A stretch of DNA of 64,000 bases. Source: Eubacteriales bacterium (GTDB lineage: Bacteria > Bacillota > Desulfotomaculia > Desulfotomaculales > Nap2-2B). The stretch covers positions 421 to 64,420 of the forward strand of contig JBAZGB010000003.1 of NCBI GenBank assembly GCA_041653135.1, given 5' to 3'. The notes under the pieces are model-generated. The model had not been told where the DNA came from. It saw only the letters and a list, made by a program, of their open reading frames with translations, and ran no database searches. Made by a program: the position numbers and the translations under genes. This document shows positions 1,654 to 56,324 of this stretch, piece by piece (position 1 is the first letter of the stretch; every line of letters begins with the position of its first letter).

Positions 1654-2523
1654 TTACAAGCCCATGTTTTGAGCTACCCGGAGCAGGTCAAAAATATCTA
1701 CATCCTCGTCCTTAATTATGTTCGCATACATCGCTTCCGGATCGGTATCCGGATCCAGCCCCATTCTGGCCGCTATCCACAGGAGATCAAAAATATCAAT
1801 TTCGCCGTCGTTATTCACATCGCCAAGGCGCAGAGTCACGTCCGGCAGTATGACATCACCACTTACTACGGTTACCGGCCTTTTTTCCTCCTTCCAGCTC
1901 GCGTCATCCCGGTCAAAGCATACATCGTAGCTGCCTGCGGACGGAGGAGATACACTGTAACTGCCGTCAGCAAGAGTAACCGTGCTGGCCACAATATTTT
2001 CACTTCCGCCTGTTTTTACATTAACTGCGACCCCGGCGAGACTAGGGTCGGGATCTGAAGACTGAGCCTTCTCCAACAAGACCTTCCCTTTGATTGCAGT
2101 CGGCGGCGGGATTTTAAGATCAACTTGTTCTACATCACCACTGTACCATTTAATAGTCACCGGAGTGCCGTAGTAATAAGTCTGTGCTGAGTAGAGGCAG
2201 CCGTTAACCTCAACCTTAAAAGTAACCGTTTTTCCCGCATCCGCGCTGTAACCGGTCACAGCAAGTTTTTTATGATCGTGGTCACCATAATAACCCCCGG
2301 TGAAATCAAATTCGGGGCTGCGCAGAGCGCCGTCAATATACGCCGTGACTATTCCCTCTTCTACCGTCTGCCCTTCAGTAGTCCATACACTGCCATAATA
2401 CTGGGCGGGCATTAGGGGAAGCGGATCATCGGCCGCGGCCGGGCCGGCCAAAGCTAAAAGGCAAAGAGCGGCGCTGATCAAGACCAGAATCCACTTTTGG
2501 AAAACTTTTGTTTGTCGGTTCAT
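1654..2523 (-). CDS. Secreted dockerin-domain protein
   Basis: AAGGAGGG RBS; signal peptide. GDVNNDGEIDIFDLL...ANIIKDEDVDIFDLL dockerin. C-terminal ~148 aa paralogous to 369..1586. Confidence 0.82.
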   Translation of the reverse strand: MNRQTKVFQKWILVLISAALCLLALAGPAAADDPLPLMPAQYYGSVWTTEGQTVEEGIVTAYIDGALRSPEFDFTGGYYGDHDHKKLAVTGYSADAGKTVTFKVEVNGCLYSAQTYYYGTPVTIKWYSGDVEQVDLKIPPPTAIKGKVLLEKAQSSDPDPSLAGVAVNVKTGGSENIVASTVTLADGSYSVSPPSAGSYDVCFDRDDASWKEEKRPVTVVSGDVILPDVTLRLGDVNNDGEIDIFDLLWIAARMGLDPDTDPEAMYANIIKDEDVDIFDLLRVAQNMGL

Positions 2524-2609: not shown

Positions 2610-3917
2610 TCAAGGAACCGAAATTGCTTCCAGCAAACGTGCGATCATGGCCGCTATCTCTGCGCGGGTTACTTCTTTTTGCGGCCCGTAGGCGCCATCC
2701 GGGTAACCCTTTACAATACCTTTTTCGGCTACGATATTTACCGCCTCGCTTGCCCAAGCCGGGATTTGTTTCTGGTCGGCAAAACTTGCCTGGGGAGGTT
2801 TCTGGTCGCCAAGTTTTTGAACCAGCACCCGGCTTATAATCGCCGCCAGTTCAGCTCTGGTAAGCTGCTTTGCCGGTTGAAAAGTACTTTCCCCACCTGT
2901 TCCGATATACCCTTTCAGCAAACCTTCGTAAACAACCGCCGCGACAGAACCTTTAGCCCACTCCGGAACATCCGCCGCATCACTGAATATGGCCAGCTTC
3001 GCGTTGTTTCTGGCATCTATGCACGGGCTGCATCCTTCCATGCCGGGATCAACGGTTTCCAGTTCCAGCGCCCGGGCAATGATGGCGGAAAATTCTGCCC
3101 GGTTGATCATCTTATTCGGGCGGAAGGTTTTATCCTCATAGCCGCTGATTATCCCCTGCCCTACCAGTTTTTCAATAACCCCTGCAGCCCAGTGGCCCTG
3201 CAAATCGGTAAACTCAACAGCCTGTGCGATGGGGGCGGAAGAATCCTGGTATTTAAAAACAGCTTCCTCACTGTACAGGTTGTTTTGACATGCAACAGCT
3301 TTTACGGTGGTAGTTGTTTTAATCGTGAATTTTTCCTTGTATTCCTGTCGTGTGCCGCTCTGTTTCGGATCTGACCCGTCGGTGGTGTAATAAATAATTG
3401 CCCCCCCGGTAGGAGAAGACAAACTTATCTCCAGACTTCCGGTAAAACTCCCGGGCTCCGGCGCAGCCTCGGGCTTTTTGGGCGCCTGCTGTATGCCGCC
3501 GGTTCCACCGCCCGTCCCGCCGCCGCTAGTCGCTTGCGCCGGCACGTCGGCAGAAAGATTTACACTAAGATAGACACCCTGTTCATATTTGACTTCCGCA
3601 GGGTCAGACTGCGCAGGATATTCCGTTCCTCCAGCGGCTACTTTAAAAATAACCGTCTGGCCGAACACGCTCTGTTCACCTTCGAAACATGCGCTGAAGA
3701 CGCCTTTTTCTATGGTATCCTGAGCATACAACTTTCCTCCGATATAAACATTTACCACGCCTGTTTGGACCAATTCGCCGGTATTGTTCTTTACCGTTCC
3801 TTCGTAACAGCTCGGCACTACCGGCAAATCGGCGGCCAGAACCAACCCGCCCAGGCTCAAAGCGAAAACAAAGGTCAATAAAACTGCATATAAACGCTTC
3901 ATTTTAAATTGTCTCAC
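2610..3917 (-). CDS. SLH-domain surface protein with Fn3-like/CHB_HEX_C-type domain
   Basis: Signal peptide; G/T linker; IYYTTDGSDP motif; three SLH repeats (FTDLQGHWA, GYEDKTFRPNKMINRAEF, GYPDGAYGPQKEVTRAE). Confidence 0.88.
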   Translation of the reverse strand: MRQFKMKRLYAVLLTFVFALSLGGLVLAADLPVVPSCYEGTVKNNTGELVQTGVVNVYIGGKLYAQDTIEKGVFSACFEGEQSVFGQTVIFKVAAGGTEYPAQSDPAEVKYEQGVYLSVNLSADVPAQATSGGGTGGGTGGIQQAPKKPEAAPEPGSFTGSLEISLSSPTGGAIIYYTTDGSDPKQSGTRQEYKEKFTIKTTTTVKAVACQNNLYSEEAVFKYQDSSAPIAQAVEFTDLQGHWAAGVIEKLVGQGIISGYEDKTFRPNKMINRAEFSAIIARALELETVDPGMEGCSPCIDARNNAKLAIFSDAADVPEWAKGSVAAVVYEGLLKGYIGTGGESTFQPAKQLTRAELAAIISRVLVQKLGDQKPPQASFADQKQIPAWASEAVNIVAEKGIVKGYPDGAYGPQKEVTRAEIAAMIARLLEAISVP

Positions 3918-3973: not shown

Positions 3974-4996
3974 TTAAGACTCCGTCAGCGCTTTCCAGAA
4001 CCTTTCCAGTGTCACTGCCGCCTCAGCCCGCGTAACTTCTTTGAGCGGCTGGAAGGTACCGTCCGGGTAGCCTTTCAGGATACCCTTCTGGACAATTAAA
4101 TTTACCGCCTCCCCAGCCCAATCCGGGATCTGCTTCTGATCGCTGAAGCTTGCCGGAGCAACCGCCGGTGGTTGCTGGGCGCCGACCACCTGATTAAGCG
4201 CCCGGACTAAAATTGCCGCCAGCTCCGCTCTATTCAATGGCTTGTGCGGCCGGAAATAAACTTTTCCGTTCTCTTCCGGATAGCCCTTTAATATACCCGC
4301 GTATACAGACGCGGCGACAGAGCTTTGCGCCCAGGCGGGTATGTCTGCTGCGTCACTGATATTTTCCAGCACTTCCGGTTCTCCGGCGCCTAAAACCAGA
4401 ATACGCGCCATCATGGCAGAAAACTCTACGCGGGTAAGGAGGTTTTCCGGCCGGAAAGAATGATTCTCGTAACCCTTGAATAATCCCTGATCAATCGCCT
4501 GCTGGGCAGTGTCTTTTGCCCAATGCCCCTTTAAATCATCAAAGGCTGCCGGCAATGTGTCCTCAGTTACAACCGTCAGGTCTACCTGCTGCTTTGACTT
4601 GCTCTCCCAAATTACTTTAGCAAGACTCGTACGCGCAAGATACTCCCGCCCGTTAACCAAAACCTCGAATTTTACTTCTTTGCCGCTCAGGTCATCTTTA
4701 CTGTAAACAAGCAGCCGGCTTGTATAGGGGTCCCATGCCGGCACTCCATAGCACCCGTTGAAAAAAGGCAGTTTGCCGCAAAGTTTCCCATCAACAAAGG
4801 CTTTCACCTCGCCGGAAGCAACAGCTTGTCCCGCTTCGGTTTTAACCGTTCCGTAGTACAGGGCGGGAAAAGCCACCGGGGGCTGCGTGGAGGAATCCTG
4901 CTGGGCATATGCATTACCCTGTAAAAATAACAATGTTCCTAAAAAGAAAATGAACATCCAAAACTTTTGACCCAGGTTCTTATATTTTTTCTGCAT
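3974..4996 (-). CDS. SLH-domain surface protein
   Basis: Likely start ATG at 4996 (MQKKYK); signal peptide; three SLH repeats (FDDLKGHWA, GYENHSFRPENLLTRVEF, GYPDGTFQPLKEVTRAE). Confidence 0.88.
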   Translation of the reverse strand: MQKKYKNLGQKFWMFIFFLGTLLFLQGNAYAQQDSSTQPPVAFPALYYGTVKTEAGQAVASGEVKAFVDGKLCGKLPFFNGCYGVPAWDPYTSRLLVYSKDDLSGKEVKFEVLVNGREYLARTSLAKVIWESKSKQQVDLTVVTEDTLPAAFDDLKGHWAKDTAQQAIDQGLFKGYENHSFRPENLLTRVEFSAMMARILVLGAGEPEVLENISDAADIPAWAQSSVAASVYAGILKGYPEENGKVYFRPHKPLNRAELAAILVRALNQVVGAQQPPAVAPASFSDQKQIPDWAGEAVNLIVQKGILKGYPDGTFQPLKEVTRAEAAVTLERFWKALTES

Positions 4997-5066
4997 CAAT
5001 CTTTCGCCTTTAAATATTGCTTTCAAAAAATATATTTCCCTTCAGCTTCTTTATTCAAGAAAATAA

Positions 5067-5105
5067 AGCTTATCTGGTGCGGCGGGTCCGCCGCACCAGA
5101 CAGCT
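5067..5105 (-). terminator. Intrinsic terminator after the 955-aa gene
   Basis: Perfect inverted repeat tctggtgcggcgg/ccgccgcaccaga followed by TTTATTTT on the minus strand. Confidence 0.8.
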
Positions 5106-5177: not shown

Positions 5178-8045
5178 TTATGGGTTTTGAGTCTCTTCTT
5201 CGTACAGCAAGTCATCAAACATTGACTGGCCAACTTCGGCAGCCAGCGTCTGAGTCTTGGTCATGTATACCCAGTAGCCGTCGCCGTTGAACACCAGGTA
5301 CAGCGGGTCGAGCGCCCAGGCTTCAAGCGTACCCTGGGAAACATCGGCCGCCGTAAACCCGGCCAGGTTGGCCATCCTGTTGGGATCGCCGTCGATATTT
5401 ACGTCCTTTATTCCTGTGTTCGGATCGAGATCAACGACGATATCCAGTCCGTGGCCGCCCGGGTTATAGGTCTTCTTGCAGGCTTCGCAGGTGGTTCCGA
5501 GCATCTTGCCCAAGAACTCAGGCTGGTAAAGCTTGTCGCAAGGATAGCCTTCACAATTCGGACTGTCGCAATCCGGTACTTTGCAATTGCCGATAATATC
5601 AATCTCTATCGCCGGCGGCAAGGTCATCTCGCTCGGCATGGCTACTCCGACCAGGTTCCAGCCCTGCACCACAGTTCTGGTGGGCGGGATATCTTCACCG
5701 GGGTTGGCAACCCGGTTGAAGACGTATTTTGCCACATAGCAGTTCGGAGCTCCTTGTGTTGCTCTTTGCTTCGTCTTTACGTAGTAGGCGTAAAGCGGAT
5801 CAAGTTCCTCATCGGGGGCAAGGCTATCCCACTGATAGTCTTTATAGGTTAGAATATCGGCAAAGCTGCTCGCCGGCATCAGGGAATCCATGCCGCCGCT
5901 GCCCACCAGTTCCTGCGGAGTGGAAAGGACCTGCCAGGTCTCCGCATTCAGCACACGCTTTAAATCTACAGGATCGGCAAAGGGGCCAACTGCAACTGTG
6001 TTGGTTAGAATGACTTTTCCGGTTGTCTTGCCGACCAGCTTCGCCTGCACATAGACTACACTGCAAACACAGCTTGCGGAAGGATAGACATAGAAGTGTG
6101 ACTTCACGGTGCAGTATGGGTGAGTGTACTTATCCCAGCCATGGCACACTTTGCAAAGCAGCTCGCTGTGGTCTTCATTATAAATGTCGCCGCGGCCATC
6201 ATAGGCGCCTTTAAAGTTGAAGGTAGTATCAAGCGCCGTATCCCAGGTTGCGCAGCTGGGCGGGCAGAATTCCTTGGGGCTGGTCCCGGCCCAATTTGTA
6301 TCGTCTCCATCATCCGATCCACGCAGAGAAACAATAACGTCATAATTCTCAGTGGCATGGATATCGTTTCCTGCATCATCCTTTAGCCAGATTGCCGCAG
6401 ACAGCGGCCAACCGGCAACGGGGGCATTCTCGACAGAACCGAGTTCAATATCCTTGACCACTTTTACGGTAATATCCAACTGGGCCTGCGTTGCCTCATT
6501 GACAAATGCCTTGCATCTGGCAACAGACCTGTTAAGGTTGATTATGGAACGGCCTTCGATTGTCATTTCACCCAGTTTTTTCGGGTAGAATGTTACGCAA
6601 ATCCCCGTTTGGCCTTGCGGAATCCAAATGTGGGTGATTTCGTTGCCAGCAGCGTCTTTAAAGATACCGGTAACATTTTTGTTCGTATCGTAAGCGATAA
6701 GGTCAACCTTTAAACCGCCTGCATCCCTTACCGTTGTCAGGTTGCCGAACTTATCATAGACATCGATGCAGAAGTTGTAAGGTTTGTCAAGGGGAATCGG
6801 GCTCTCTTTCGGACAAGACCTCGGTCCGATGCAACTGGGCACACCAGGAGAAAGCGTGATGGTCCGGGGAATCGCTTCCAGCCAGGCGTGGGGCATTGTT
6901 TCAATGCACCCTGGAACGACAAAAGGACTATATAAAATGTGTGTCCCGCCAGAACTGGTTGCCCCGGCAAAGTCCTCTAAGGCCTCGGCAGCCATAAGCT
7001 GGCAATCCACAGTAAAGGGCGCAATATACTCAATCTCAGGATCTGCATTGCAGTCCTGTACTTCGATTGTACGCGCCCGGATGGTATAATCCAGGCCGTA
7101 ATCCTCACAGGCCGGCAGCTTTAGCTGGGCTGTGAAGATGGTTCTGTCTCCCAACTGCCTCGTATGCGCGACCACGGGGCAGATCGGCACGCCTGTGCAC
7201 GGTTTATAGTTCGCGGAACAATTTTCAATTATAGTTTCCCCATCTTCTATTACGAATGATCCTGGTCCACCGGCGTAAGGATCCTGCGCCGTCAGGCCTT
7301 TTTTATCCACGAGGTCAATAAGTACCGGCCAGGTGTCAAACGGCCAGGGTTTGTTGCAGGTACCCCAAACCTCTCCGCTGACCTCGATTGTAGAGCCTTT
7401 AGTGTAAGGAGCAGCGGGTAAATCAAGCGTTATTCTCTCTACAGTGCGCACTACTCTCAGCGCCATGCAGGATGAGACGCCACCGGTAAAGCACGGATGG
7501 CGCAGCGTGATGCAATAGCTTCCATCCAGGCAGGTGTTCTTCACCCTTAAGCCCTCGATTTGGAAATAATTGACTGTACCTATTTGCGGCAGGTTTTGTT
7601 TTTGAATAACAAAGGTAGCCGTGTGACTTACATTATCAATCACCGGAATTGTCTGAAGAATAGTACCAGTCATAGGATCTGAGCCACTGGTCCAGACCCG
7701 TATAGCAACAGTTCTCCCAATAGCCGGAGAAAGATCAAACTGTGTAGCATTCGGGTCGGAGATTTCCGGGAAATCAACCACTATCGGCTGATCTGCAAAT
7801 ACTCCCAGGTCAATATCGCCAAATAAGCCGGAATAGATCCCGTAATCATATGTGTGACTGCCCTTGACGACGTTCATATTCATGCCTGTATACGGGTTTA
7901 GTTGAGGATTCCCGTCAGGACCCAAAGCAATAATCCCTGTGTAATCAACCGGCGCCGCCAGTGATACTCCGGCAAACATAAAGCAACACAGAGCAACTAC
8001 AGCTAAAACAATGCTAAGTTTGCCCCATTTAGATATATGTGACAT
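5178..8045 (-). CDS. Large secreted Cys-rich surface (S-layer-like) protein with one CxxCH motif
   Basis: AAGGAGGG RBS; signal peptide; ~31 Cys in the mature chain by manual count; CKVCH at 6141-6155; two C-terminal W/GWNL...YYV/YWV repeats; own terminator and long leader. Function is an inference. Confidence 0.65.
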   Translation of the reverse strand: MSHISKWGKLSIVLAVVALCCFMFAGVSLAAPVDYTGIIALGPDGNPQLNPYTGMNMNVVKGSHTYDYGIYSGLFGDIDLGVFADQPIVVDFPEISDPNATQFDLSPAIGRTVAIRVWTSGSDPMTGTILQTIPVIDNVSHTATFVIQKQNLPQIGTVNYFQIEGLRVKNTCLDGSYCITLRHPCFTGGVSSCMALRVVRTVERITLDLPAAPYTKGSTIEVSGEVWGTCNKPWPFDTWPVLIDLVDKKGLTAQDPYAGGPGSFVIEDGETIIENCSANYKPCTGVPICPVVAHTRQLGDRTIFTAQLKLPACEDYGLDYTIRARTIEVQDCNADPEIEYIAPFTVDCQLMAAEALEDFAGATSSGGTHILYSPFVVPGCIETMPHAWLEAIPRTITLSPGVPSCIGPRSCPKESPIPLDKPYNFCIDVYDKFGNLTTVRDAGGLKVDLIAYDTNKNVTGIFKDAAGNEITHIWIPQGQTGICVTFYPKKLGEMTIEGRSIINLNRSVARCKAFVNEATQAQLDITVKVVKDIELGSVENAPVAGWPLSAAIWLKDDAGNDIHATENYDVIVSLRGSDDGDDTNWAGTSPKEFCPPSCATWDTALDTTFNFKGAYDGRGDIYNEDHSELLCKVCHGWDKYTHPYCTVKSHFYVYPSASCVCSVVYVQAKLVGKTTGKVILTNTVAVGPFADPVDLKRVLNAETWQVLSTPQELVGSGGMDSLMPASSFADILTYKDYQWDSLAPDEELDPLYAYYVKTKQRATQGAPNCYVAKYVFNRVANPGEDIPPTRTVVQGWNLVGVAMPSEMTLPPAIEIDIIGNCKVPDCDSPNCEGYPCDKLYQPEFLGKMLGTTCEACKKTYNPGGHGLDIVVDLDPNTGIKDVNIDGDPNRMANLAGFTAADVSQGTLEAWALDPLYLVFNGDGYWVYMTKTQTLAAEVGQSMFDDLLYEEETQNP

Positions 8046-8144
8046 CTAGGTGTTCCCTCCTTCGTAAATTGATTAGCCATTTAATAAGAACATATAAACC
8101 AACTATAAACTACCTCGCTTAGGTTGAATCGCCCAAGTCTTGAA

Positions 8145-8155
8145 ATCACCTCCTT
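8145..8155 (-). promoter_or_regulatory. Orphan perfect Shine-Dalgarno sequence (AAGGAGGTGAT) in the leader; possible STAB-SD
   Basis: 11-nt anti-SD complement 100 nt upstream of the ATG at 8045, followed only by a 5-codon TTG ORF. Confidence 0.45.
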
Positions 8156-8449
8156 TTCCTAAAAGGGATCCTTCCCGGCATTCCCCCTTTCTAAAAGATG
8201 ACAAGCTCTTCTCTCTTACTGAAACCTGCATTGCCAAACAATTCCTCGCGTTAAAAGCTTCCTCGAGGAAAATTATATCTGCCCGCTTAAGATCAGCCAC
8301 CCGTCTTCACTGGCTATTATATTGCATTAATAACGATAAATTACTGCCTGAAAATATATATAAGCAGACTATAACCCCAGAGCTAAGATTTTTCCTGCCC
8401 TGGAAGATTAATGGCCGGTCTTCCTTTTTTTTCTTCTAATAACTGCATA

Positions 8450-8477
8450 GTTCTACAAGATGACTTTGAAATCCTTC
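8450..8477 (-). promoter_or_regulatory. SigH-like promoter
   Basis: GAAGGATTT-N11-TGTAGAAC matches the sigmaH consensus RNAGGAWWW...GAAT with one mismatch. Confidence 0.45.
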
Positions 8478-8506
8478 TGTCCTGAAATAATTTTTACAGT
8501 GCTATT

Positions 8507-8538
8507 ATCAACAGATCCTCTACACGGAGGAAATTAAT
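8507..8538 (-). promoter_or_regulatory. Candidate bacterial SECIS element
   Basis: After the UGA at 8543-8545: lower stem AUUAAU/GUUGAU, upper stem UCCUC/GAGGA starting after an 11-nt spacer, apical loop CGUGUA. No U-tract follows. Confidence 0.5.
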
Positions 8539-8542
8539 GACT

Positions 8543-9256
8543 TCACCCGCCGCAATGAGTAGTTTTTCCGGCGCTGTCTTCCATCGGCGCCTTAATGGCC
8601 CTGTCCGCCAGCTTTGTACCGCGCCAGCCGACATCAAACCCACCTGTCATGTTTTTGACAGGCAGTCCCTGCGCTCCCAAAACACCGGCGACCAGGCCGG
8701 AGGAACTGCCGTCAGCGCAATAAACAACAATTTCATTCAGGCCTCCCCGGGCCGCGTGTTCGGCCAACAAACGCTTCAGCTCGGCAATGTTTTGTTTTTC
8801 AGCCATGTTTTCCGCCGGGGCAATCCAGACGGCGCCCGGAACATGGGCGGGATCGTAAACAGCTTTATTCCTTACGTCAACAACCAGGGGGTCGTTACCA
8901 ATCTGATCGCCGGTATTATGGCCGGTCCTGTAATCGGCCAGGGAATTGTCGTTGTCGTCATCAAGAATCTTTTTGAGTCCGGCAGGACTGATCAGGTTGT
9001 CCGCCTTGCCCAGATAAAGCTCGCCCCGCTGGTCATCAATAGTTACCGTCCCGTTTTTTTCGTCCCAGGCCACATGTGCGCCAAGCTGCTCGCTGACAAA
9101 ACGGATCGGAACATATATTCGGCCGCTTTTTAGGATGACTGAAACCCCTTCTCCGGCCTCAACTCCGCTAATTAACAGCCTGATTGCCTGCCCTGCCTGT
9201 GCCCATCCACAACCAAGCAAAAATATACAAATCAGCAGAACCGCTATCTTTTTCAA
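8543..9256 (-). CDS. Secreted copper-amine-oxidase-N-terminal (stalk) domain plus rhodanese protein; candidate C-terminal CxxU selenoprotein (would extend to 8534)
   Basis: YVPIRFVSEQLGAHVAWD stalk motif; LVVDVR...HVPGA and VVYCADGSSS rhodanese motifs; ends H-C-G-G-TGA-S-H-TAA. Confidence 0.8.
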   Translation of the reverse strand: MKKIAVLLICIFLLGCGWAQAGQAIRLLISGVEAGEGVSVILKSGRIYVPIRFVSEQLGAHVAWDEKNGTVTIDDQRGELYLGKADNLISPAGLKKILDDDNDNSLADYRTGHNTGDQIGNDPLVVDVRNKAVYDPAHVPGAVWIAPAENMAEKQNIAELKRLLAEHAARGGLNEIVVYCADGSSSGLVAGVLGAQGLPVKNMTGGFDVGWRGTKLADRAIKAPMEDSAGKTTHCGG

Positions 9257-10753: not shown

Positions 10754-12582
10754 GCCTCGTGTTCTTCCTCTCCGGCCTGTTTCATCAGGGCGGAGAACTC
10801 TTCAGCTTCCAACGTTTCTTTTTCTATCAAGGTATTGGCTATCAAATGCAGGGCACTGATATGCTTTTTCATAATTTCTTTGGCCCGGTCATAATTAAGT
10901 TCCACAACCCTGTGTACTTCCTTGTCGATTGCGGAAGCCACTTCTTCTCCGTAGTTGCGGTCCCGCGCCAGGTCACGTCCCAGGAAAATCGTTTCCTGCT
11001 TGTGGCCCAGGGTCAAAGGGCCAAGGTTCTCACTCATTCCGTATTCCATGATCATACGCCGGACTATCTCGGTTGAACGCTCCAAATCGTTCTGGGCGCC
11101 TGTACTGATCTCCCCCAGGACAAAATCTTCGGCGACCCTGCCGGCCAGAAGCATAGTCACCTGATCTAGAAGCATGGACTTTGTCATATAATAACGGTCT
11201 TCCTTAGGCAGAAGCAGTGTGTAACCCCCCGCGCGGCCCCTCGGGATAATCGACACCTTGTGAACCGGATCAGTATTCGGCAGCAGATATCCGACCACGG
11301 CATGCCCGGCCTCGTGATAAGAGACAAGCTTTTTTTCCTTCTCGCTGATGACCTTGGACTTTTTCTCGGGGCCTGCAATCACGCGCTCAATGGAGCTTTC
11401 CAACTCACGCATGCCAATTTCTTTTTTGCCGACGCGGGCGGCTAATAAAGCGGCCTCATTAACCAGGTTGGCCAGGTCCGCTCCTGTAAACCCGGGTGTG
11501 CGCCTGGCCAAAATGTCCAGGTCTACATCATCACCTAAGGGTTTACCCTTGGCATGGACCTTTAAAATTTCTTTGCGGCCGGTTATATCCGGTATATCCA
11601 CGGTTACTTCCCGGTCAAACCTGCCGGGACGCAGCAGGGCGGGATCCAAAATGTCAGGCCTGTTGGTAGCCGCAATAACAATAATCCCCTCATTGGGGCT
11701 GAAACCATCCATTTCCACGAGAAGCTGGTTCAAGGTCTGCTCCCTCTCGTCATGCCCTCCGCCCAAACCTGCCCCTCTCTGACGGCCCACCGCGTCAATT
11801 TCATCAATGAAGACAATACAGGGAGCATTTTTTTTGGCCTGATCGAACAGGTCCCGGACCCGTGAAGCTCCCACACCGACGAACATCTCTACAAAATCGG
11901 AACCGCTGATGCTGAAAAAAGGCACTCCCGCTTCCCCGGCAACAGCTTTGGCGAGAAGGGTTTTGCCTGTTCCCGGGGCGCCGAAGAGCAGCACCCCTCT
12001 GGGGATACGCGCTCCGAGTTCGGTAAACTTCTTGGGGGTTTTTAAGAATTCGACCAGTTCGACAAGTTCTTCTTTTGCCTCATCAGCTCCGGCAACGTCT
12101 GCAAAAGTAACTTTTTTTCTTTCGTCAGTGTGCAGCTTGGCCTTGCTTTTTCCAAACGACATTACCCTGTTTCCGCCGCCCTGTGTCTGCTGCATCATAA
12201 AAAAGAAAAGCAGGACAAAGATAAGGATCGGTAAAACGCCGGTCAGGATATTGGTCCATAAACCCGGCGGAGGCGGTTCTTCCGCTGTAATCTTGACCTT
12301 CTTCTCCACCAGCAGTGCGGTAAGATCGGCATCGTTCTTTAAGCCGGTCACTTTAAACTTGACGCCGTCCTTTTTCGTGCCGGTGATCAAATTAGTCGTG
12401 TCCTTGGCCTGGATGGTTACCTCCTGTACCTGCCCCTGATTCACATAATCAAGAAATTGATCATAACGCCATTGCTTTATGTCAACGTTTTGAGGTTGCG
12501 CATATTTAAGCAGGGCTATGATTACCAACAGGATTAGCAAATAAATACTGAGGTTCTTGAGAATCCTGTTCAATAAAGCCAC
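10750..12582 (-). CDS. ftsH: ATP-dependent zinc metalloprotease FtsH
   Basis: Two TMs, GAPGTGKT Walker A, VFIDEID Walker B, HEAGH zinc motif. Confidence 0.98.
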
Positions 12583-12628
12583 TCCTTCTTAATTTATACT
12601 GTTTTGAAAAGGTTTTCGTTTAATAAAA

Positions 12629-12657
12629 ATTGTAACATATCCCGCACTTAGTTTCAA
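12629..12657 (-). promoter_or_regulatory. SigA promoter of ftsH
   Basis: TTGAAA-N17-TACAAT with an extended -10 TG. Confidence 0.65.
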
Positions 12658-47170: not shown

Positions 47171-49099
47171 TTATAAACCGTTGGCTGTTGTTTTTGGCTT
47201 GATCAAAAAACGCTTATCACCCACTCTTTTGGTCACCTTGATCCTGTCAAAGTATTCCAGCAAGGGCAGCGCGTATTTCCTGGAAATATTAAAAAGAGTT
47301 TTAATTTCTCCGATCGAAATTTCATTATTTTTTTCCAAATACCCGGTCAAGAGTTTTTTTGCATCTTCAATGGCAGCAGCGTGAAAATAAAGTCCTTCCG
47401 CCACTTTGACCAGCGTCCCCTGCCGCAAAAAAAGCTGCAGGACTTCCTGAGACTGTAATTCGCCAATACCTTCCCCAGCGGAAACGCTTTCCCAATCCGG
47501 CGGTTGAAAGCCGTTTTTATAAAAGATATCTTCTACTTTCTTGATAATCTCCTGCTGGCCGTCTTCAAGTTTAGGCTGAAAACCTTTTAATGCTATTGTG
47601 TTCGAACCCGGACTTAAAATATTTTCTGCTCCCATTATCTTAAGCAGCGACTGAAGCTGTCTTGTGTTAAATTGGGGAAAAAGCCTGGAACGCAGTTCCT
47701 CACGGGGGAAACCTTCCCTTAAAGGATACTGGTGATGGTATTTCTTCAGAAGTTCGGTTAATTTTTCAACCCATTGCTTGTAAATCTCCCGGGAAATAAA
47801 AAAATGGTCATGATCCGCTGTCAGGACATACACTTTATTTTCCCCGCTCAGTTCTTCAAGCGCCCGGTCAGTTTCTTCCTCTTTAATCCCGGTTGACCGG
47901 GATATATCCGATTTGCTCCTGATTGTTTTCTGGCTTTTTAAATAGCTTTCCACCTGTTCAGCAGGGAGGCCAAGTTCACGAGTAACCAATGCTTCAATTA
48001 TTTCTTCCCGCATTCGTTTATGTTTCCTGGATGCCGAATCGACTACGACACCTCCTCCCAGAGTATGAACAGGAGAATATGACCGGAACACGAAACGGTC
48101 CCCTTTTATAGCCGCAACCGGTTCCTCAAGCAGAAATTGCGCATAAGCGGTTTCTCCGGGTAAAAGTTTATCCCTGTCCAACAGGATAACCCTGCCGAGA
48201 ATTTCAGCCGTACCAAGATAAAAACGAAGACGGGTCCGGTTTTCCAACTCCTTTTGCACATTTGCAAGCAAAGAAATCCGGGCATCCAGACGGTTGGCAG
48301 ACCTTAAAAACCCCGGCTTTGCCAAAACGCTTCCCCTTTGAGCCTGTTCCACACCTACACCGGCAATATTTACAGCCACCCTCTGCCCGGCCATGGCTTC
48401 TTTTACTTTTTCTCCGTGAACCTGCAGGGAACGCACCCTGGCAACCAATCCCTGAGGCATAATCTCCAGGTTGTCTCCGGTATGAATAACTCCGCTCCAG
48501 AGCGTGCCCGTCACCACTGTGCCAAATCCCGTTACGGAAAACGCCCTGTCTATAGGCAGCCGGGCCTGCCCTGCATTATCTTTTCCTTCCACCGGAACTT
48601 CGTCGATTTTTTTCAGCAGCTCTTCCAGTCCCTGACCTGTAACCGCAGACACCTCCACAACAGGGGATTCTTTTAAAGGGGTGTCTTTCAGGAAATCATT
48701 AACATCTTCCCGGACCAATTTTAAAAATTCTTCGTCAACCAGGTCAACTTTCGTCAAAGCAACTATTCCCCGGTTGATCTGCAATAAACGGACAATATCC
48801 ATGTGCTCCCGTGTTTGGGGCATAACTCCCTCATCTGCGGCTATAACCAGTAAAACAAGATCAATTCCGGCTACCCCGGCCAACATGTTTTTAATAAACC
48901 GCTCGTGACCGGGAACATCGACAATGCCTGCCCGGCGTCCGCTGGGAAGCCGGCAAAAAGCGAATCCCAGCTCGATGGAGATCCCTCTTTCCTTCTCCAT
49001 CTTTAACCTGTCAGTGTCAATCCCCGTCAGAGCTTTAATCAGAGCTGTTTTCCCGTGATCTACATGGCCTGCCGTACCAATGATAATATTGGTCATCAC
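47171..49099 (-). CDS. selB: Selenocysteine-specific elongation factor
   Basis: GTAGHVDHGKT, DVPGHERF, TKVD; winged-helix tail ending SRKYALPLLEYFD..KVTKRVGDKR. Confidence 0.97.
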   Translation of the reverse strand: MMTNIIIGTAGHVDHGKTALIKALTGIDTDRLKMEKERGISIELGFAFCRLPSGRRAGIVDVPGHERFIKNMLAGVAGIDLVLLVIAADEGVMPQTREHMDIVRLLQINRGIVALTKVDLVDEEFLKLVREDVNDFLKDTPLKESPVVEVSAVTGQGLEELLKKIDEVPVEGKDNAGQARLPIDRAFSVTGFGTVVTGTLWSGVIHTGDNLEIMPQGLVARVRSLQVHGEKVKEAMAGQRVAVNIAGVGVEQAQRGSVLAKPGFLRSANRLDARISLLANVQKELENRTRLRFYLGTAEILGRVILLDRDKLLPGETAYAQFLLEEPVAAIKGDRFVFRSYSPVHTLGGGVVVDSASRKHKRMREEIIEALVTRELGLPAEQVESYLKSQKTIRSKSDISRSTGIKEEETDRALEELSGENKVYVLTADHDHFFISREIYKQWVEKLTELLKKYHHQYPLREGFPREELRSRLFPQFNTRQLQSLLKIMGAENILSPGSNTIALKGFQPKLEDGQQEIIKKVEDIFYKNGFQPPDWESVSAGEGIGELQSQEVLQLFLRQGTLVKVAEGLYFHAAAIEDAKKLLTGYLEKNNEISIGEIKTLFNISRKYALPLLEYFDRIKVTKRVGDKRFLIKPKTTANGL

Positions 49100-49100
49100 T

Positions 49101-50570
49101 TCACCCCTGGAATAATTCCTTTTTCTCCTCTTTTAACAAAACACCTGACAATGCATCCAGGATCATTTTTTCTTCTCCGTTTTGGATGGTTCTTAAATCT
49201 AAAAGAAAGAGGTCTTCCCGTACCCTGCCCAAAACAGCGGGTTCATGATATCTTAAAAGCTGGCTGAACCGTTCCATGCTCAGTTTAAATGGTTTAACAG
49301 CCACCGCAAAGGAAGGCAGTTCCGCCGTCGGCATAGCCCCGCCTCCTACCCGGGAAACAGAGCTTCTGACAGTTATTTCCGCTTCTCTCTGTACAGCTTC
49401 TCTCAAGCTGCAAGCCATATCTTCCGCCCTCAACCGGATATCTTCCAAATCCCCAGTAATCATCCGCAACGTTGGAATATCTTCTAGGGCCTGCTCCGGA
49501 TTCAGGTATGACCTTAAGGTGGCTTCCAGCGCCGCCAGAGTTAGTTTGTCTATCCTCAACGCACGGGCCAGGGGGTTTTTATGCATTTCCTCAATAATTT
49601 CCTTTTTGCCGGCAACAATCCCCGCCTGTGGACCGCCAAGCATTTTATCCCCGGAAAAGGTCACCACACTGATACCGGCGCCCAGCACCTGTTGGACGGT
49701 AGGCTCAGCCGGAAGATTGAAAAACCCGAGATCCGCCAGAACACCGCTGCCCAGATCGCTCATTACCGGCAGGTTAAACTCCCGTCCCAGCTTGACAAGT
49801 TCAGAAACACTTGCCTGTCTGGTAAAACCTATAATATGGTAATTGCTTGTATGGACATGCAAAATCAACGCCGTTCTCTCGGTAATCGCCGCCCGGTAAT
49901 CTTCAACATAGGTCTTGTTGGTTGTGCCCACCTCAACAAGGGTACAGCCGCTCTGTTTCATAATCTCGGGAATGCGGAAAGAACCGCCTATTTCTACGAG
50001 TTGGCCTCTTGATACAATTACTTCCTTTCCCCGGGCCAATGTGCTCAAAGCCAAAAGGACAGCCGCCGCGTTGTTATTTACGGCCAGAAAGGACTCAGCC
50101 CCGGTTAACCTGAAAAGAATGTCTTGAACGGCGGCGTGCCGTGAACCTCTCCTGCCCGTATCAAGATCAAATTCAAGATTGATGTAACTTGACGCAGCTA
50201 AAAAGACAGCCTGACAGGCGGCCGTGCTTAATAAAGAACGGCCAAGGTTTGTATGCAGGATAACTCCGGTTCCATTGATTACTTTTTTTACATTTGATCC
50301 TGCAATCCTTTTAACCGTTTCCGCAGTTTCCAGCACGACAAGACCTTTTAGCTGTTCCCTGGAAAAACTTCTTCCTGATCCCTCGTTATTTTTTAATTCG
50401 TCGCGAATGCGGTCCAATGCGCTGCGTATTATTTCAAGAACAATTTCACGAGGATAAAAACTTAATAGTTCACTGATTTGGGAAGACTGCAGAATTTCAT
50501 TTACAGCAGGCAACTTGTGCAAGATCTTTTCTCCGCCGTTTACATCCAAATTTGTTTTGCCCCCAATCAT
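49101..50570 (-). CDS. selA: L-seryl-tRNA(Sec) selenium transferase
   Basis: INGTGVILHTNLGR, NNNAAAV, SRGQLVEIGGSFR, FSGDKMLGGPQAG. Confidence 0.97.
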   Translation of the reverse strand: MIGGKTNLDVNGGEKILHKLPAVNEILQSSQISELLSFYPREIVLEIIRSALDRIRDELKNNEGSGRSFSREQLKGLVVLETAETVKRIAGSNVKKVINGTGVILHTNLGRSLLSTAACQAVFLAASSYINLEFDLDTGRRGSRHAAVQDILFRLTGAESFLAVNNNAAAVLLALSTLARGKEVIVSRGQLVEIGGSFRIPEIMKQSGCTLVEVGTTNKTYVEDYRAAITERTALILHVHTSNYHIIGFTRQASVSELVKLGREFNLPVMSDLGSGVLADLGFFNLPAEPTVQQVLGAGISVVTFSGDKMLGGPQAGIVAGKKEIIEEMHKNPLARALRIDKLTLAALEATLRSYLNPEQALEDIPTLRMITGDLEDIRLRAEDMACSLREAVQREAEITVRSSVSRVGGGAMPTAELPSFAVAVKPFKLSMERFSQLLRYHEPAVLGRVREDLFLLDLRTIQNGEEKMILDALSGVLLKEEKKELFQG

Positions 50571-52770: not shown

Positions 52771-55032
52771 TTACTTTTGTTCCTGCAGAACAAGATAGAC
52801 TATTGGCGGAGCTCCAAAGATCATGGTTGTTGCAGCAGCCACTATTCCCGCATCGTTGAAAATTAGAGCCACAATGCTTGCCGTAACAACACCGACAAAT
52901 CCCTTGTATAAATCGGGATGCCTTTTCCGTATCGTGGCCATAACACCCAGCGGTCTGTAGAACAAGAGAGCAAGGCTTCCCAGGCTGGCAATAAAAATCC
53001 GGGTCCAAATTGTATATCTGATCAATTTCAGGTTCATTTCAGTTTTACGTACGATTATGTTTTTTATCTCCTGCCAGCCTCCGGATAAAATCAAGGAAGC
53101 ATTCCGTCCGAAGTGCGACTGAAGCTCGGCGGGCCTGAACAGATCAATTGCCGGTATTACAGCCACTAACCCGATTATGATGATGACAAGATAAATGACA
53201 GTGCGCAGCTTGAACTTTACGTTACAGAGCAGCAAAAAGGTAGTCGCCAGTGCGGCAACCGAGACGATAGCCCCTCCCATTTTAGAGCCCAGGGCTGGTG
53301 AGGCCAATATATAGACAGTGATCAGAAAAATAATTCCCGTCAAAGCCAGCAGGGTTCTCCGGTAACGCTCAAACTTGCTCATTAAGGTTGTGCAGCCGAT
53401 AATTAAAGAACCCATTAACACTCCCATGTATTCGTTTCCTATTCCGTAGAAGCGTGCGCCGGCTATCGGATCATAGCTCATTATCGAAGTCTTCTGAAGG
53501 GGCGCCCCGATGGCTGTGTCCAGAATCAACAATCCTGCAGTGGCCAGGCTTAGAAAAATAAACGAACCAAGGTTGTGGCGGCGCTCAAACCACCAGGCCA
53601 GACAGGTAATCCAGGCCGTAAGCAGGAACAGTTCCAAAGTTAAAACAAAAAATGAGGGCTGGGGTAAAAGAGACAGCAGCAAATAAACCAGCGGGACAGC
53701 CATAACGGATAATAAAAATGGTTGAAGCAGCCGGGCAGCCTTTTTATGAATGAGGATAAAATACAGGCTGACCAGCAACAGGCCCAGTTGGCAAATACAG
53801 TATCCCTTTTGAAAGATGTTCCGTGCATTATACGTCAGAGTCAGTTGTTTATTCATATCGACCAGCTTGCTGAGCTGGTTTTCTGATTCAACCCAGAGCA
53901 TATTCTGGCCGCTCATCCATTCGGGCTTTCTCAAATTGAGAAAACCCAGGATTGTCGGGGCCAGATCGGTATTCATTATAATTCCCTGTCTTTTGGTTGT
54001 CGGTGAGAACAGAAAGCCTTCCCGCACCCCTGCTCCAACCGCTAAAATATTAGAAAGGTATTCATTCTGATTTCCGGTGGTGGTTTTTCCCGGCGTAGGG
54101 GAAATAATCAGCAGGAGGTCCCTGTCCGGATTCAGCCGGCCCATTACTCTTCCGATAAACTGATCAATCCTTTGCATTGTCCGCTTACGTTCAGCGGCCC
54201 AGACCGGATCGGACACATAATTACGAAACTCTTCCAGCCTGGACAGATCGCCTGTTTCTATTACTGTAAGAGCCGTATCGCCGGGTAAACGCTCCATCTC
54301 CTGAAGAACCCTGGCGTAATTTGTACGAAACCCGCCGGGAAAACGGTCGTCCATCTTTTCAAGCAGAGAAGCGCTGACATCACCATTGTCCACCAGCCCG
54401 TATCTGTCCATTGCAATGGACAGAATCTCCCGGCGGCGGCCGATAATTGTATCTGCATTACCAAAAACAGCTGTTTTCAAGCCCGCTTCGTGCAGACGGT
54501 CGCCTAAAGCGCCCGGTACGGCAGGATAAGGAAGTTCGCTGTTAAGCTGCCCAAACCTGGTAATATCGAGCTGGACAACCGCCGAAGAGGGAACTTTCCT
54601 GCCCAAACGCCGGTAGTATTCAAACCCTGCGGGCCCGGAATCCTGCTCTTCATCTGCATTCAAACCCATTGTATACGTCCCTGTTGCTATGATATGTGAA
54701 CCTGCCCCAATTGTGGCATAAGTATTTTCCGAAAGAAGGTTATTACCGGCGGTATTACAGTTCATCAGGCTGATCGCGCCATTTTGTATGATTTTGTGAA
54801 AATTAGCAAGCAACGGATCGCTAAAGTCTTCTAAAACCATCCGGTCGACAATTACAATGACAACCTTGTTTTCTTCCGAAGGGCTGGATGCAAAGGGGTT
54901 GGCTGCAGCATTTTTTACGCCTGGACTTACGTTTTGCATCGCCGTACCCGGCCAACCCAAGGCAGGAAAACCCGTCAGCAGGATAATAAAAATCAATAGG
55001 ATAACAACACTGTTCAGTTTACTCTTCTTCAT
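52771..55032 (-). CDS. Membrane protein with alkaline-phosphatase-superfamily-like extracellular domain and ~10 C-terminal TMs
   Basis: VVIVIVDRM, YATIGAG, GARFYGIGNEY, FNDAGI motifs; adjacent to a GT4 gene. Confidence 0.65.
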   Translation of the reverse strand: MKKSKLNSVVILLIFIILLTGFPALGWPGTAMQNVSPGVKNAAANPFASSPSEENKVVIVIVDRMVLEDFSDPLLANFHKIIQNGAISLMNCNTAGNNLLSENTYATIGAGSHIIATGTYTMGLNADEEQDSGPAGFEYYRRLGRKVPSSAVVQLDITRFGQLNSELPYPAVPGALGDRLHEAGLKTAVFGNADTIIGRRREILSIAMDRYGLVDNGDVSASLLEKMDDRFPGGFRTNYARVLQEMERLPGDTALTVIETGDLSRLEEFRNYVSDPVWAAERKRTMQRIDQFIGRVMGRLNPDRDLLLIISPTPGKTTTGNQNEYLSNILAVGAGVREGFLFSPTTKRQGIIMNTDLAPTILGFLNLRKPEWMSGQNMLWVESENQLSKLVDMNKQLTLTYNARNIFQKGYCICQLGLLLVSLYFILIHKKAARLLQPFLLSVMAVPLVYLLLSLLPQPSFFVLTLELFLLTAWITCLAWWFERRHNLGSFIFLSLATAGLLILDTAIGAPLQKTSIMSYDPIAGARFYGIGNEYMGVLMGSLIIGCTTLMSKFERYRRTLLALTGIIFLITVYILASPALGSKMGGAIVSVAALATTFLLLCNVKFKLRTVIYLVIIIIGLVAVIPAIDLFRPAELQSHFGRNASLILSGGWQEIKNIIVRKTEMNLKLIRYTIWTRIFIASLGSLALLFYRPLGVMATIRKRHPDLYKGFVGVVTASIVALIFNDAGIVAAATTMIFGAPPIVYLVLQEQK

Positions 55033-56205: not shown

Positions 56206-56324
56206 CCGTTCCCTCCCTGGTTTAATTGCTGCCAAATTAAAAACCAGCGGATTTATTCTTGTATTTCGCTAAAACCCGGTTTTTTACCTGCCAAAGGAAA
56301 AAATAATCGGTCATAAACTCACAG

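What the first reader, a model, noticed from the sequence alone, without database searches (positions are those of the whole stretch)
5178..8045. 955-aa Cys-rich secreted protein with CxxCH and CxxCK motifs and no SLH
Seen: about 31 Cys in the mature chain, none in its first ~140 aa. CKVCH at 6141-6155, CEACK at 5475-5489, and a C-x4-C-x4-C-x4-C run near the C-terminus. Two repeats of the TWQVLSTP...YAYYVK / GWNLVG...GYWVYM type. Strong RBS, long leader and own terminator, as in highly expressed S-layer genes. Known: CxxCH is the c-type haem attachment motif, and exported proteins of anaerobic Firmicutes are usually Cys-poor. Inference: a disulfide-crosslinked and possibly haem-bearing surface-layer protein, of interest for extracellular electron transfer. 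A single CxxCH among this many Cys could be chance.
Basis: partly seen in the sequence, partly recalled or inferred. Interest (0 to 1): 0.65.

Follow-up and report, generated by a model that had tools for sequence, protein, structure and literature searches.

The report
Cys-rich surface protein with SLH partner
This gene encodes a large, secreted, cysteine-rich protein from an undescribed family that always sits next to a cell-wall-anchoring partner gene, so it is most likely an outer surface-coat protein of an uncultured groundwater anaerobe; it is almost certainly not a haem (cytochrome) protein.

Summary
ORF 5178..8045(-) encodes a 955-aa protein with a cleavable signal peptide and 31 Cys in the mature chain, none before residue 172. 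CKVCH, CEACK and the C-x4-C run lie at the stated coordinates. There is no SLH domain and no Pfam or NCBIfam hit.

The cytochrome idea fails. Only 12 of 37 family members keep the loop. The residue after the second Cys is His in 7 of those 12 and Tyr in a 70%-identical homologue. The AlphaFold model (pLDDT 88) is all-beta. The whole genome could not be searched for ccs/res genes.

The S-layer idea is plausible but untested. The protein is a chain of Ig-like beta-sandwiches plus a 272-aa C-terminal domain with no match in PDB or BFVD. In every locus examined, the next gene encodes a ~100-aa N-terminal domain joined to SLH repeats. This includes the distant, Cys-free homologue in Desulforudis audaxviator. 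A strong hairpin always separates the two genes.

Cysteine richness is a derived trait of one branch and is concentrated in variable, acidic insert loops.

Best reading: the outer subunit of a two-part, wall-tethered surface layer. No expression data could be found.

The parts
5178..8045 (-). Gene for the 955-aa Cys-rich secreted protein (P0001). The mature chain is 925 aa, about 100.7 kDa, pI 4.5.
7956..8045 (-). Signal peptide, aa 1-30 (…ALCCFMFAGVSLA|A). A30, at the -1 cleavage position, is invariant in all 37 family members.
7536..7955 (-). Cys-free N-terminal beta-sandwich region, aa 31-170.
5997..7535 (-). Chain of Ig-like/MG-like beta-sandwich domains, aa 171-683, carrying most of the Cys.
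   Evidence: AlphaFold model me5b620649187, pLDDT 88. Foldseek matches only strings of Ig/MG domains.
6141..6155 (-). CKVCH, aa 631-635, in a variable loop. The His is not conserved, and C634 co-occurs with C645 across the family.
5181..5996 (-). C-terminal 272-aa domain, aa 684-955. It is the best conserved part of the family, with motifs WQVLSTP…YAYYVK and GWNLVG…GDGYWVYM. It has no structural relative.
   Evidence: Model ma7c3a00161cf, pTM 0.82. No PDB or BFVD match. Invariant residues listed.
5526..5645 (-). Hypervariable, acidic, Cys-dense insert, aa 801-840, containing C-x4-C-x4-C-x4-C. In relatives it is 5-72 aa long with 0-9 Cys.
5475..5489 (-). CEACK, aa 853-857, part of LGTTCxxCKKxYNPGG. 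This CxxC pair is the best conserved Cys feature; the two Cys co-occur in 21 of the 23 members that have either one.
8055..8062 (-). Ribosome-binding site AAGGAGGG, 9 nt before the ATG.
   Evidence: conserved in relatives
8046..8220 (-). Conserved part of the leader/promoter region, still alignable with the relative whose protein is 70% identical. Sequence further upstream is not conserved.
5071..5102 (-). Intrinsic terminator or intercistronic stabilising hairpin between the gene and its SLH partner. A strong hairpin occupies the same position in five other loci folded.
3974..5026 (-). Partner gene: signal peptide, a ~100-aa unnamed N-terminal domain (PALYYGTVK…) and 3 SLH repeats. A gene of this design follows the large gene in every locus examined.
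2610..3917 (-). Second protein with the same N-terminal domain, plus CHB_HEX_C and 3 SLH repeats.
1654..2523 (-). Third protein with the same N-terminal domain, here joined to a CarboxypepD_reg-like domain and a dockerin.

Best explanation
Proposed function. The gene encodes the large, anchorless outer subunit of a two-part cell-surface layer. After Sec export and cleavage at ALA|A, the ~100-kDa acidic chain of beta-sandwich domains stays on the cell. It has no wall-binding domain of its own. It is held by the ~100-aa N-terminal domain of the protein encoded next to it, whose C-terminal SLH repeats bind the cell-wall polymer. Two further paralogues of that N-terminal domain, one SLH-anchored and one dockerin-anchored, give additional tethers.

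Role of the C-terminal domain. This conserved twin-motif domain is the likely docking or self-association module.

Role of the cysteines. They are a lineage-specific addition to an ancestrally Cys-free scaffold. They lie mostly in variable surface loops and most likely form stabilising disulfides or bind metal. They are not haem attachment sites.

Shown: secretion signal, fold class, family membership, conserved gene pairing, non-conservation of the His.

Inferred: physical binding to the partner, abundance, lattice formation, oxidation state of the Cys.
For: 1. Every locus examined has, directly downstream, a gene for the PxxFYGxV N-terminal domain. SLH repeats follow it wherever the whole gene is on the contig:
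- window;
- L001-L003;
- L005 and L006;
- L007/L008;
- L010 and L013-L015;
- Desulfovirgula L009, where the gene is cut by the contig end;
- D. audaxviator Daud_0778/0779.
The partners are aligned in A3.

2. The AlphaFold model (pLDDT 88.2) is all-beta and multi-domain. Foldseek hits are strings of Ig/MG domains. They include an archaeal S-layer protein (8c8m, rank 48), but all have low TM-scores.

3. There is no catalytic or known binding domain, the mature pI is 4.5, and there is no LPXTG, lipobox or thioester motif.

4. The RBS is strong and the leader is conserved. A 13-21-bp GC-rich hairpin lies right after the gene in six loci even though its sequence differs. This fits a structural subunit made in excess of its anchors.

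5. The wider family in Desulforudis, Ammonifex, Moorella, Desulfofundulus and Desulfovirgula has 0-4 Cys. In the Cys-rich branch, Cys make up 5.0% of insert columns against 2.3% of core columns, and their positions are clade-specific.
Against: - No transcript, proteome or microscopy data: no RNA runs hold the gene.
- Codon usage is unremarkable (Nc 54), though the whole window shows little bias.
- No complex prediction was possible, so binding to the partner rests on synteny alone.
- The family is small and patchy: 42 clusters at 50% identity among 1.84 billion representatives. It is therefore not the general S-layer of this class.
- The published S-layer of Desulfotomaculum nigrificans is assigned to a different, widespread protein family (bioRxiv 10.1101/2024.05.28.596244).
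- The odd Cys count in 19 of 33 members gives no sign of full intramolecular disulfide pairing.
Confidence: 0.5

Rival explanations
1. It is a wall-tethered adhesin or binding protein, not a lattice. The C-terminal twin GWNL…GYW-type domain binds an external ligand such as a partner cell, a mineral or a polymer. The protein is present at moderate copy number, displayed by the SLH and cohesin-dockerin scaffold.
For: - Earlier scan notes describe a very widespread, uncurated twin GWNL…GYW module as a probable binding module; these notes are leads only.
- The locus also carries dockerin and cohesin proteins without enzymes.
- The hypervariable Cys-rich insert in the C-terminal domain looks like a surface under diversifying pressure.
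- Codon usage shows no bias.
Against: - There is one copy per locus, with strictly conserved pairing and an intercistronic hairpin.
- The C-terminal domain is the most conserved part of the family, whereas adhesin tips usually vary most.
- Homology to the widespread twin module could not be shown statistically.
Confidence: 0.27
2. It is a haem-c-bearing surface protein. Haem is attached at C631/C634 with H635 as axial ligand, and the protein takes part in extracellular electron transfer.
For: - CKVCH is present.
- CxxCH is expected by chance in only 1.5% of shuffles.
- Of the 12 members that keep the loop, 7 have His after the second Cys and 6 have a true CxxCH.
Against: - The His is Tyr in a 70%-identical homologue, and W, Q or K in others; P0003 has Cx4CH.
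- The loop is missing in 25 of 37 members.
- C634 co-varies with C645, which suggests a disulfide.
- There is a single motif only, lying in a coil of an all-beta model.
- The window contains no CcsA WWD motif.
Confidence: 0.04
3. It is a redox- or metal-active surface. The acidic Cys-dense loops bind metals or metal sulfides, or carry persulfides. They would work with the neighbouring secreted rhodanese and VKOR-like membrane protein.
For: - The inserts are Cys-dense and acidic (CCDCHDC, CCDDCCSC and CCNECQC in relatives).
- Cys counts are often odd.
- The rhodanese, VKOR-like and CxxC genes lie directly upstream here and in the 93% relative, and a rhodanese lies in the L005 cluster.
- Earlier notes e1-5052683 and e1-5052682 describe the same cassette.
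Against: - The cassette is not adjacent in the 70% relative or in more distant loci.
- No Cys cluster is conserved across the family except one CxxC.
- There is no cofactor-binding fold match.
Confidence: 0.12
4. It is a spore-surface (exosporium or coat) protein cross-linked by cysteines, like the Cys-rich outer spore proteins of Bacillus and Clostridioides.
For: - The organism is a spore-former: spoIIE and spoIID are in the window.
- Cys-rich composition is typical of outer spore layers.
- LuxR/GerE-type HTH regulators lie upstream in several relatives.
Against: - It has a Sec signal peptide with an invariant cleavage site, whereas coat and exosporium proteins are made in the mother cell without signal peptides.
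- The partner carries SLH repeats that bind the cell-wall polymer.
- The regulators are 215-aa receiver-like/LuxR proteins, not the 74-aa GerE, and none is present in this window.
Confidence: 0.05

Closest known systems
Two-component S-layers with a separate anchoring subunit (Sulfolobales SlaA/SlaB; Clostridioides difficile SlpA low- and high-molecular-weight subunits)
   Same: A large, anchorless, beta-rich outer subunit is encoded next to a smaller subunit that carries the envelope anchor. Both are exported, and the outer subunit is acidic.
   Different: - No sequence or specific fold relationship.
- The anchor here is SLH repeats on a separate gene product, not a membrane helix (SlaB) or CWB2 repeats (C. 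difficile).
- Three paralogous tethers and a cohesin-dockerin pair accompany it.
- Lattice formation is not shown.
SLH-anchored S-layer proteins of Bacillota (Sap and EA1 of Bacillus anthracis, SbsB of Geobacillus)
   Same: A secreted, ~100-kDa, acidic, multi-domain beta protein with a strong RBS, a long leader and its own terminator. SLH repeats are used for wall attachment in the same locus.
   Different: The protein itself has no SLH domain. Attachment would be indirect. It carries 31 Cys, whereas classical S-layer proteins have few or none.
Uncurated twin GWNL…GYW extracellular module
   Same: - Two similar halves, each starting with GWN[LV][LIV] and ending in an aromatic YW[VI] strand.
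- All-beta, C-terminal position in secreted proteins.
- No Pfam model and no solved relative.
- One note pairs it with an S-layer candidate and an anchoring partner.
   Different: - The domain here is 272 aa rather than ~140 aa because of large inserts.
- Homology could not be demonstrated: profile searches found only this family and the two halves match only marginally.
Surface multihaem c-type cytochromes of Gram-positive metal reducers (Thermincola potens)
   Same: A secreted surface protein of an anaerobic Bacillota member with a CxxCH motif.
   Different: One motif instead of many, His not conserved, all-beta fold, no haem-maturation genes seen in the window.
Cellulosome-type SLH anchoring scaffoldins (cohesin-dockerin display, e.g. 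Acetivibrio/Clostridium thermocellum OlpB, SdbA)
   Same: The locus combines SLH anchors with cohesin and dockerin proteins.
   Different: The 955-aa protein has neither a cohesin nor a dockerin, and no glycoside hydrolases are present.

Membership tests
c-type cytochrome | CxxCH haem-attachment motif with an invariant axial His, conserved among homologues | tested here: not met
   His in 7 of the 12 members that keep the loop; Y, W, Q or K in the rest. The loop is absent in 25 of 37 members.
c-type cytochrome | Haem-binding fold (helical cytochrome c domain, or multihaem packing with several CxxCH motifs) | tested here: not met
   A single motif, lying in a coil with pLDDT about 71-74 within an all-beta model. 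No cytochrome among the Foldseek or PDB sequence hits.
c-type cytochrome | Cytochrome c maturation system (CcsBA/ResBC or Ccm) in the genome | not testable with these tools
   Whole-genome search was shut. Within the 64-kb window there is no WWD motif and no other CxxCH-bearing ORF.
SLH-anchored S-layer protein | SLH repeats (PF00395) in the same polypeptide | tested here: not met
   No SLH hit at E <= 1.
S-layer protein (general) | Very abundant and forms a 2-D crystalline lattice on the cell | not testable with these tools
   No RNA runs, no multimer prediction available, and codon bias is uninformative.
Two-component surface layer (outer subunit plus separate anchor subunit) | Anchorless large subunit encoded next to a subunit that carries the envelope anchor, with the pairing conserved | tested here: met
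   The pairing is conserved in all loci examined, down to about 27% identity.
Two-component surface layer (outer subunit plus separate anchor subunit) | Physical binding between the two subunits | not testable with these tools
   Only single-chain structure prediction was available.
Twin GWNL…GYW extracellular module (uncurated) | Two homologous ~70-aa halves with GWNL and GYW motifs, and detectable homology to the large family | tested here: inconclusive
   The motifs are present in both halves. hhalign of the halves gives P = 0.028. Profile and region searches reach only this family, plus two sub-threshold beta-helix proteins.
Alpha-2-macroglobulin / thioester proteins | CGEQ-type thioester motif and thioester domain | tested here: not met
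   No C[GLA]EQ motif. Foldseek similarity is limited to generic MG/Ig domains with TM 0.1-0.17.
Cys-rich spore coat or exosporium proteins (CotY/ExsY, CdeC type) | Made in the mother cell without a signal peptide | tested here: not met
   The signal peptide is conserved and A30 at the cleavage site is invariant.

The most novel reading that the evidence does not exclude
One branch of an otherwise Cys-free surface-layer family of subsurface Bacillota has turned its outer face into a thiol- and carboxylate-rich surface. Hypervariable loops such as C-x4-C-x4-C-x4-C, CCDCHDC and CCDDCCSC would bind metals or metal sulfides, or carry persulfides. In this genome they would be serviced by the adjacent secreted selenocysteine-rhodanese and VKOR-like membrane protein. 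The cell coat would then be chemically active: it could sequester metals, nucleate minerals or relay sulfur and electrons without haem.
Probability: 0.1. Interest if true: 0.75.

Novelty: new variant of a known kind. Interest (0 to 1): 0.42.

Why it matters
Many uncultured Desulfotomaculia-type Bacillota from aquifers, landfills and hydrocarbon-degrading consortia have no identified envelope proteins.

This work defines an unnamed two-gene module: a large beta-sandwich protein with a fold-orphan C-terminal domain, plus a partner with an unnamed N-terminal domain and SLH repeats. The module reaches cultured species (Ammonifex degensii, Moorella mulderi, Desulfofundulus luciae) and the well-known Desulforudis audaxviator, so the idea can be tested at the bench.

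The contrast between Cys-free and Cys-rich branches (11-46 Cys) of the same scaffold is a natural experiment. It bears on why a strict anaerobe would load an exported protein with cysteines.

The work also removes a false lead: this protein is not evidence for cytochrome-based extracellular electron transfer in this lineage.

Tried and rejected
- Pfam and NCBIfam scans of the protein found nothing. The only hit was a sub-threshold RHS_repeat at aa 430-460, taken as chance.
- A PDB sequence-profile search found nothing meaningful.
- Foldseek of the full model gave only generic Ig/MG strings, so alpha-2-macroglobulin was rejected (no thioester motif).
- Foldseek of the C-terminal domain against PDB and BFVD gave no significant match. 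Weak double-jelly-roll and bicupin hits had probability <= 0.11 and were not used.
- Profile-profile comparison of the two C-terminal halves was marginal.
- A Rfam search of the gene and its flanks found no family.
- The sigma-70 scan found no convincing promoter upstream of the gene.
- RNA-seq searches with the window gene and with the SCADC homologue found no runs.
- Codon-usage analysis (Nc, PCA) gave no signal.
- Whole-genome search for cytochrome maturation genes was shut.
- Cys co-occurrence analysis for disulfide partners was dominated by phylogeny. Only C853-C856 and C634-C645 stand out.
- Literature searches for locus tags, Desulforudis S-layer and Peptococcaceae S-layer found nothing on this family.
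Full report
**1. Observation**

The minus-strand ORF 5178..8045 is intact and encodes 955 aa.
- It has 33 Cys. Two lie in the signal peptide, 31 in the mature chain, and the first mature Cys is C172.
- The mature protein is about 100.7 kDa with pI 4.5.
- No SLH domain and no significant Pfam or NCBIfam domain is present.
- AAGGAGGG lies 9 nt before the ATG.
- A 14-bp GC-rich stem followed by a T-rich tail lies at 5071-5102.
- The upstream gap is 497 nt.

The 'two repeats' are real as motifs but only marginal statistically (hhalign P = 0.028).

**2. The family**

Homologues are few:
- 7 proteins among 5.8 billion in the word-indexed search;
- 42 clusters among 1.84 billion representatives in the exhaustive search.

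Named sources are Peptococcaceae bacterium SCADC1_2_3 (70% identity) and Bacillota MAGs. The window's own DNA is found in groundwater, landfill and hydrocarbon metagenomes.

A region search started from a distant member reached a wider branch. It includes Daud_0778 of Candidatus Desulforudis audaxviator, Adeg_0119 of Ammonifex degensii, and proteins of Desulfofundulus luciae, Moorella mulderi and Desulfovirgula thermocuniculi. All are annotated as hypothetical or by generic Ig-like names. No paper mentions these locus tags.

**3. The cytochrome idea**

In the 37-member alignment A2, the loop carrying CxxCH exists in 12 members only.
- The residue after the second Cys is His in 7 of those 12.
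- It is Tyr in P0004 (70% identical), Trp in P0011, Gln in P0012 and P0020, and Lys in P0013.
- P0003 (79% identical) has Cx4CH.
- The second Cys (C634) co-occurs with C645, including in members that lack the first Cys. This points to a disulfide, not a thioether pair.

Further points against a cytochrome:
- The AlphaFold model places the motif in a coil of moderate confidence within an all-beta protein.
- No other ORF of 80 aa or more in the window has CxxCH, and no CcsA WWD motif is present.
- None of the window ORFs scanned against Pfam is a cytochrome c maturation gene.
- Shuffling gives a CxxCH in 1.5% of trials. An unrelated CxxCH in P0017 shows that such motifs arise in this Cys-rich family.

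The complete genome could not be searched. I put the haem reading at about 4%.

**4. Structure**

With A2 as input, AlphaFold2 gives mean pLDDT 88.2. The model has a signal helix, a Cys-free N-terminal sandwich, a series of beta-sandwich domains and a C-terminal domain.
- Foldseek against the PDB returns only strings of Ig-like or MG domains: PrgB, alpha-2-macroglobulins, complement and titin, with the Nitrosopumilus S-layer protein at rank 48. TM-scores are 0.1-0.2, so the similarity is to a fold class, not a family.
- There is no thioester motif, LPXTG or lipobox.
- The C-terminal 272 aa, modelled alone (pLDDT 81, pTM 0.82), has no significant match in PDB (best E 0.05, probability 0.06) or BFVD.
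- This domain holds most of the family's invariant residues: W704, P710, Y754, G795, N861, G921 and Y924.
- Earlier notes of this scan describe a very widespread, uncurated 'twin GWNL…GYW' extracellular module with no solved relative. The motifs fit, especially in Cys-free members (GWNVLSTP…GYFVK and GWNLLGV…DAYWVYM). I could not demonstrate homology.

**5. Genomic context**

This is the strongest evidence.
- In every locus examined, the gene directly downstream encodes a signal peptide and a ~100-aa domain of the form P-x-x-[FY]-[YS]-G-x-V … F-x-V … W.
- After optional Ig-like modules, three SLH repeats follow wherever the gene is complete.
- Loci: window 3974..5026, L001-L003, L005 and L006, L007/L008, L010 and L013-L015, Desulfovirgula L009 (gene cut by the contig end) and D. 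audaxviator Daud_0779.
- The N-terminal domain has no Pfam, NCBIfam or PDB relative beyond weak hits to small beta-sandwiches.
- It recurs in three genes of the window, twice with SLH and once with a dockerin.
- Closer relatives (L013-L014) and the distant L001 and L002 also share CHB_HEX_C-SLH, dockerin and cohesin-bearing genes.
- A strong GC-rich hairpin (13-21 bp) lies between the large gene and the SLH gene in the window, L013, L002, L001, L005 and L007. Its sequence differs between them. This suggests either termination with partial read-through or 3'-end stabilisation of the upstream message, as expected for a subunit needed in excess.
- The last ~175 nt of the leader are conserved with the 70% relative; the rest is not. 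No Rfam family matches.

**6. The cysteines**
- The wider branch (Desulforudis, Ammonifex, Moorella and others) has 0-4 Cys per protein. Five distant members in A2 have 0-2 mature Cys.
- The window's branch has 11-46.
- Cys positions are largely clade-specific. Only the CxxC in LGTTCxxCKKxYNPGG is kept broadly; its two Cys co-occur in 21 of the 23 members that have either one.
- Cys make up 5.0% of residues in variable insert columns against 2.3% in core columns.
- One insert in the C-terminal domain, between GWNLVG and Q841, varies from 5 to 72 aa. It is acidic and holds up to 9 Cys, in patterns such as CCDCHDC and CCDDCCSC.
- Mature Cys counts are even in only 14 of 33 members, so complete intramolecular pairing is not indicated.
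- The VKOR-like, CxxC-protein and rhodanese genes upstream are adjacent here and in the 93% relative. A rhodanese also sits in the L005 cluster. The cassette is not adjacent in the 70% relative or in other loci. I treat the link as suggestive only.

**7. Interpretation**

The best-supported model is an anchorless outer subunit of a wall-tethered surface layer, held by SLH-bearing partners through their shared N-terminal domain. Cysteines would be a later decoration.

My estimates for each step:

| Claim | Probability |
|---|---|
| Not a cytochrome | ~0.9 |
| Surface protein tethered by the partner | ~0.65 |
| True S-layer lattice | ~0.35-0.4 |

An adhesin-type role for the same architecture is the main rival. 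Spore-surface and alpha-2-macroglobulin readings fail specific tests.

**8. Limits**
- No expression data.
- Codon bias is uninformative.
- No multimer modelling was available.

Noticed in passing
window 5071-5102; L013 ~4646-4677; L002 ~7101-7132; L001 ~6324-6355; L005 ~12620-12650; L007 ~10955-11000: A strong GC-rich hairpin sits between the large gene and its SLH partner in all six loci folded, although the sequences are unrelated in the distant ones. It is a positionally conserved intercistronic terminator or stabiliser.
   Followed up: partly
window 3974-5026, 2610-3917, 1654-2523; L016 10109-12190 (Daud_0779); L009 10135-11748: An unnamed ~100-aa N-terminal domain (PxxFYGxV…FxV…W) is shared by SLH- and dockerin-anchored proteins and is kept next to the large gene as far as Desulforudis audaxviator. 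It has no Pfam, NCBIfam or PDB relative.
   Followed up: partly
window 8046-8220 versus 8221-8542: Only the proximal ~175 nt of the 497-nt upstream region is conserved with the 70% relative. This part includes GGGGAATGCC and GGTGATTTCAAGRCTTRGGCGATTYAAYCTAA. The SigH-like site proposed earlier at 8450-8477 lies in the non-conserved part.
   Followed up: partly
window 8402-8424 (+ strand): A terminator-like hairpin followed by a T8 run is on the plus strand in the intergenic region, with no plus-strand gene upstream. On the minus strand it reads as an A8 run followed by the hairpin.
   Followed up: no
window 47171-50570: selB (642 aa) and selA (489 aa) lie in the window. The organism therefore has selenocysteine insertion machinery, which fits earlier notes on a Sec-rhodanese at 8543-9256.
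   Followed up: no
window 52771-55032 and 62031-63029: Two sizeable ORFs (753 aa and 332 aa) have no Pfam hit at E <= 1e-5. The first lies next to a GT4 glycosyltransferase (55066-56235).
   Followed up: no
L001 2168-2815, L002 3337-3981, L006 8477-9124, L007 2342-3106: A ~215-aa regulator with a receiver-like N-terminal half and a LuxR/GerE HTH lies just upstream of the large gene in several distant relatives. It is absent from this window. The Desulforudis and Desulfovirgula loci have paired XRE-type HTH genes instead.
   Followed up: partly
P0001 aa 1-30 and C-termini of family members: The signal peptide h-region (LCCFxFAGxALA) is unusually conserved across the Cys-rich branch. Many members end exactly in …LVDP, whereas the Cys-free branch ends in …AGLAMPPVQ.
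   Followed up: no
P0082, P0083: Two beta-helix (PF13229) proteins end in a similar GYWV[FY]M…TLAG motif at sub-threshold E-values. This hints that the C-terminal module also occurs in other architectures.
   Followed up: no
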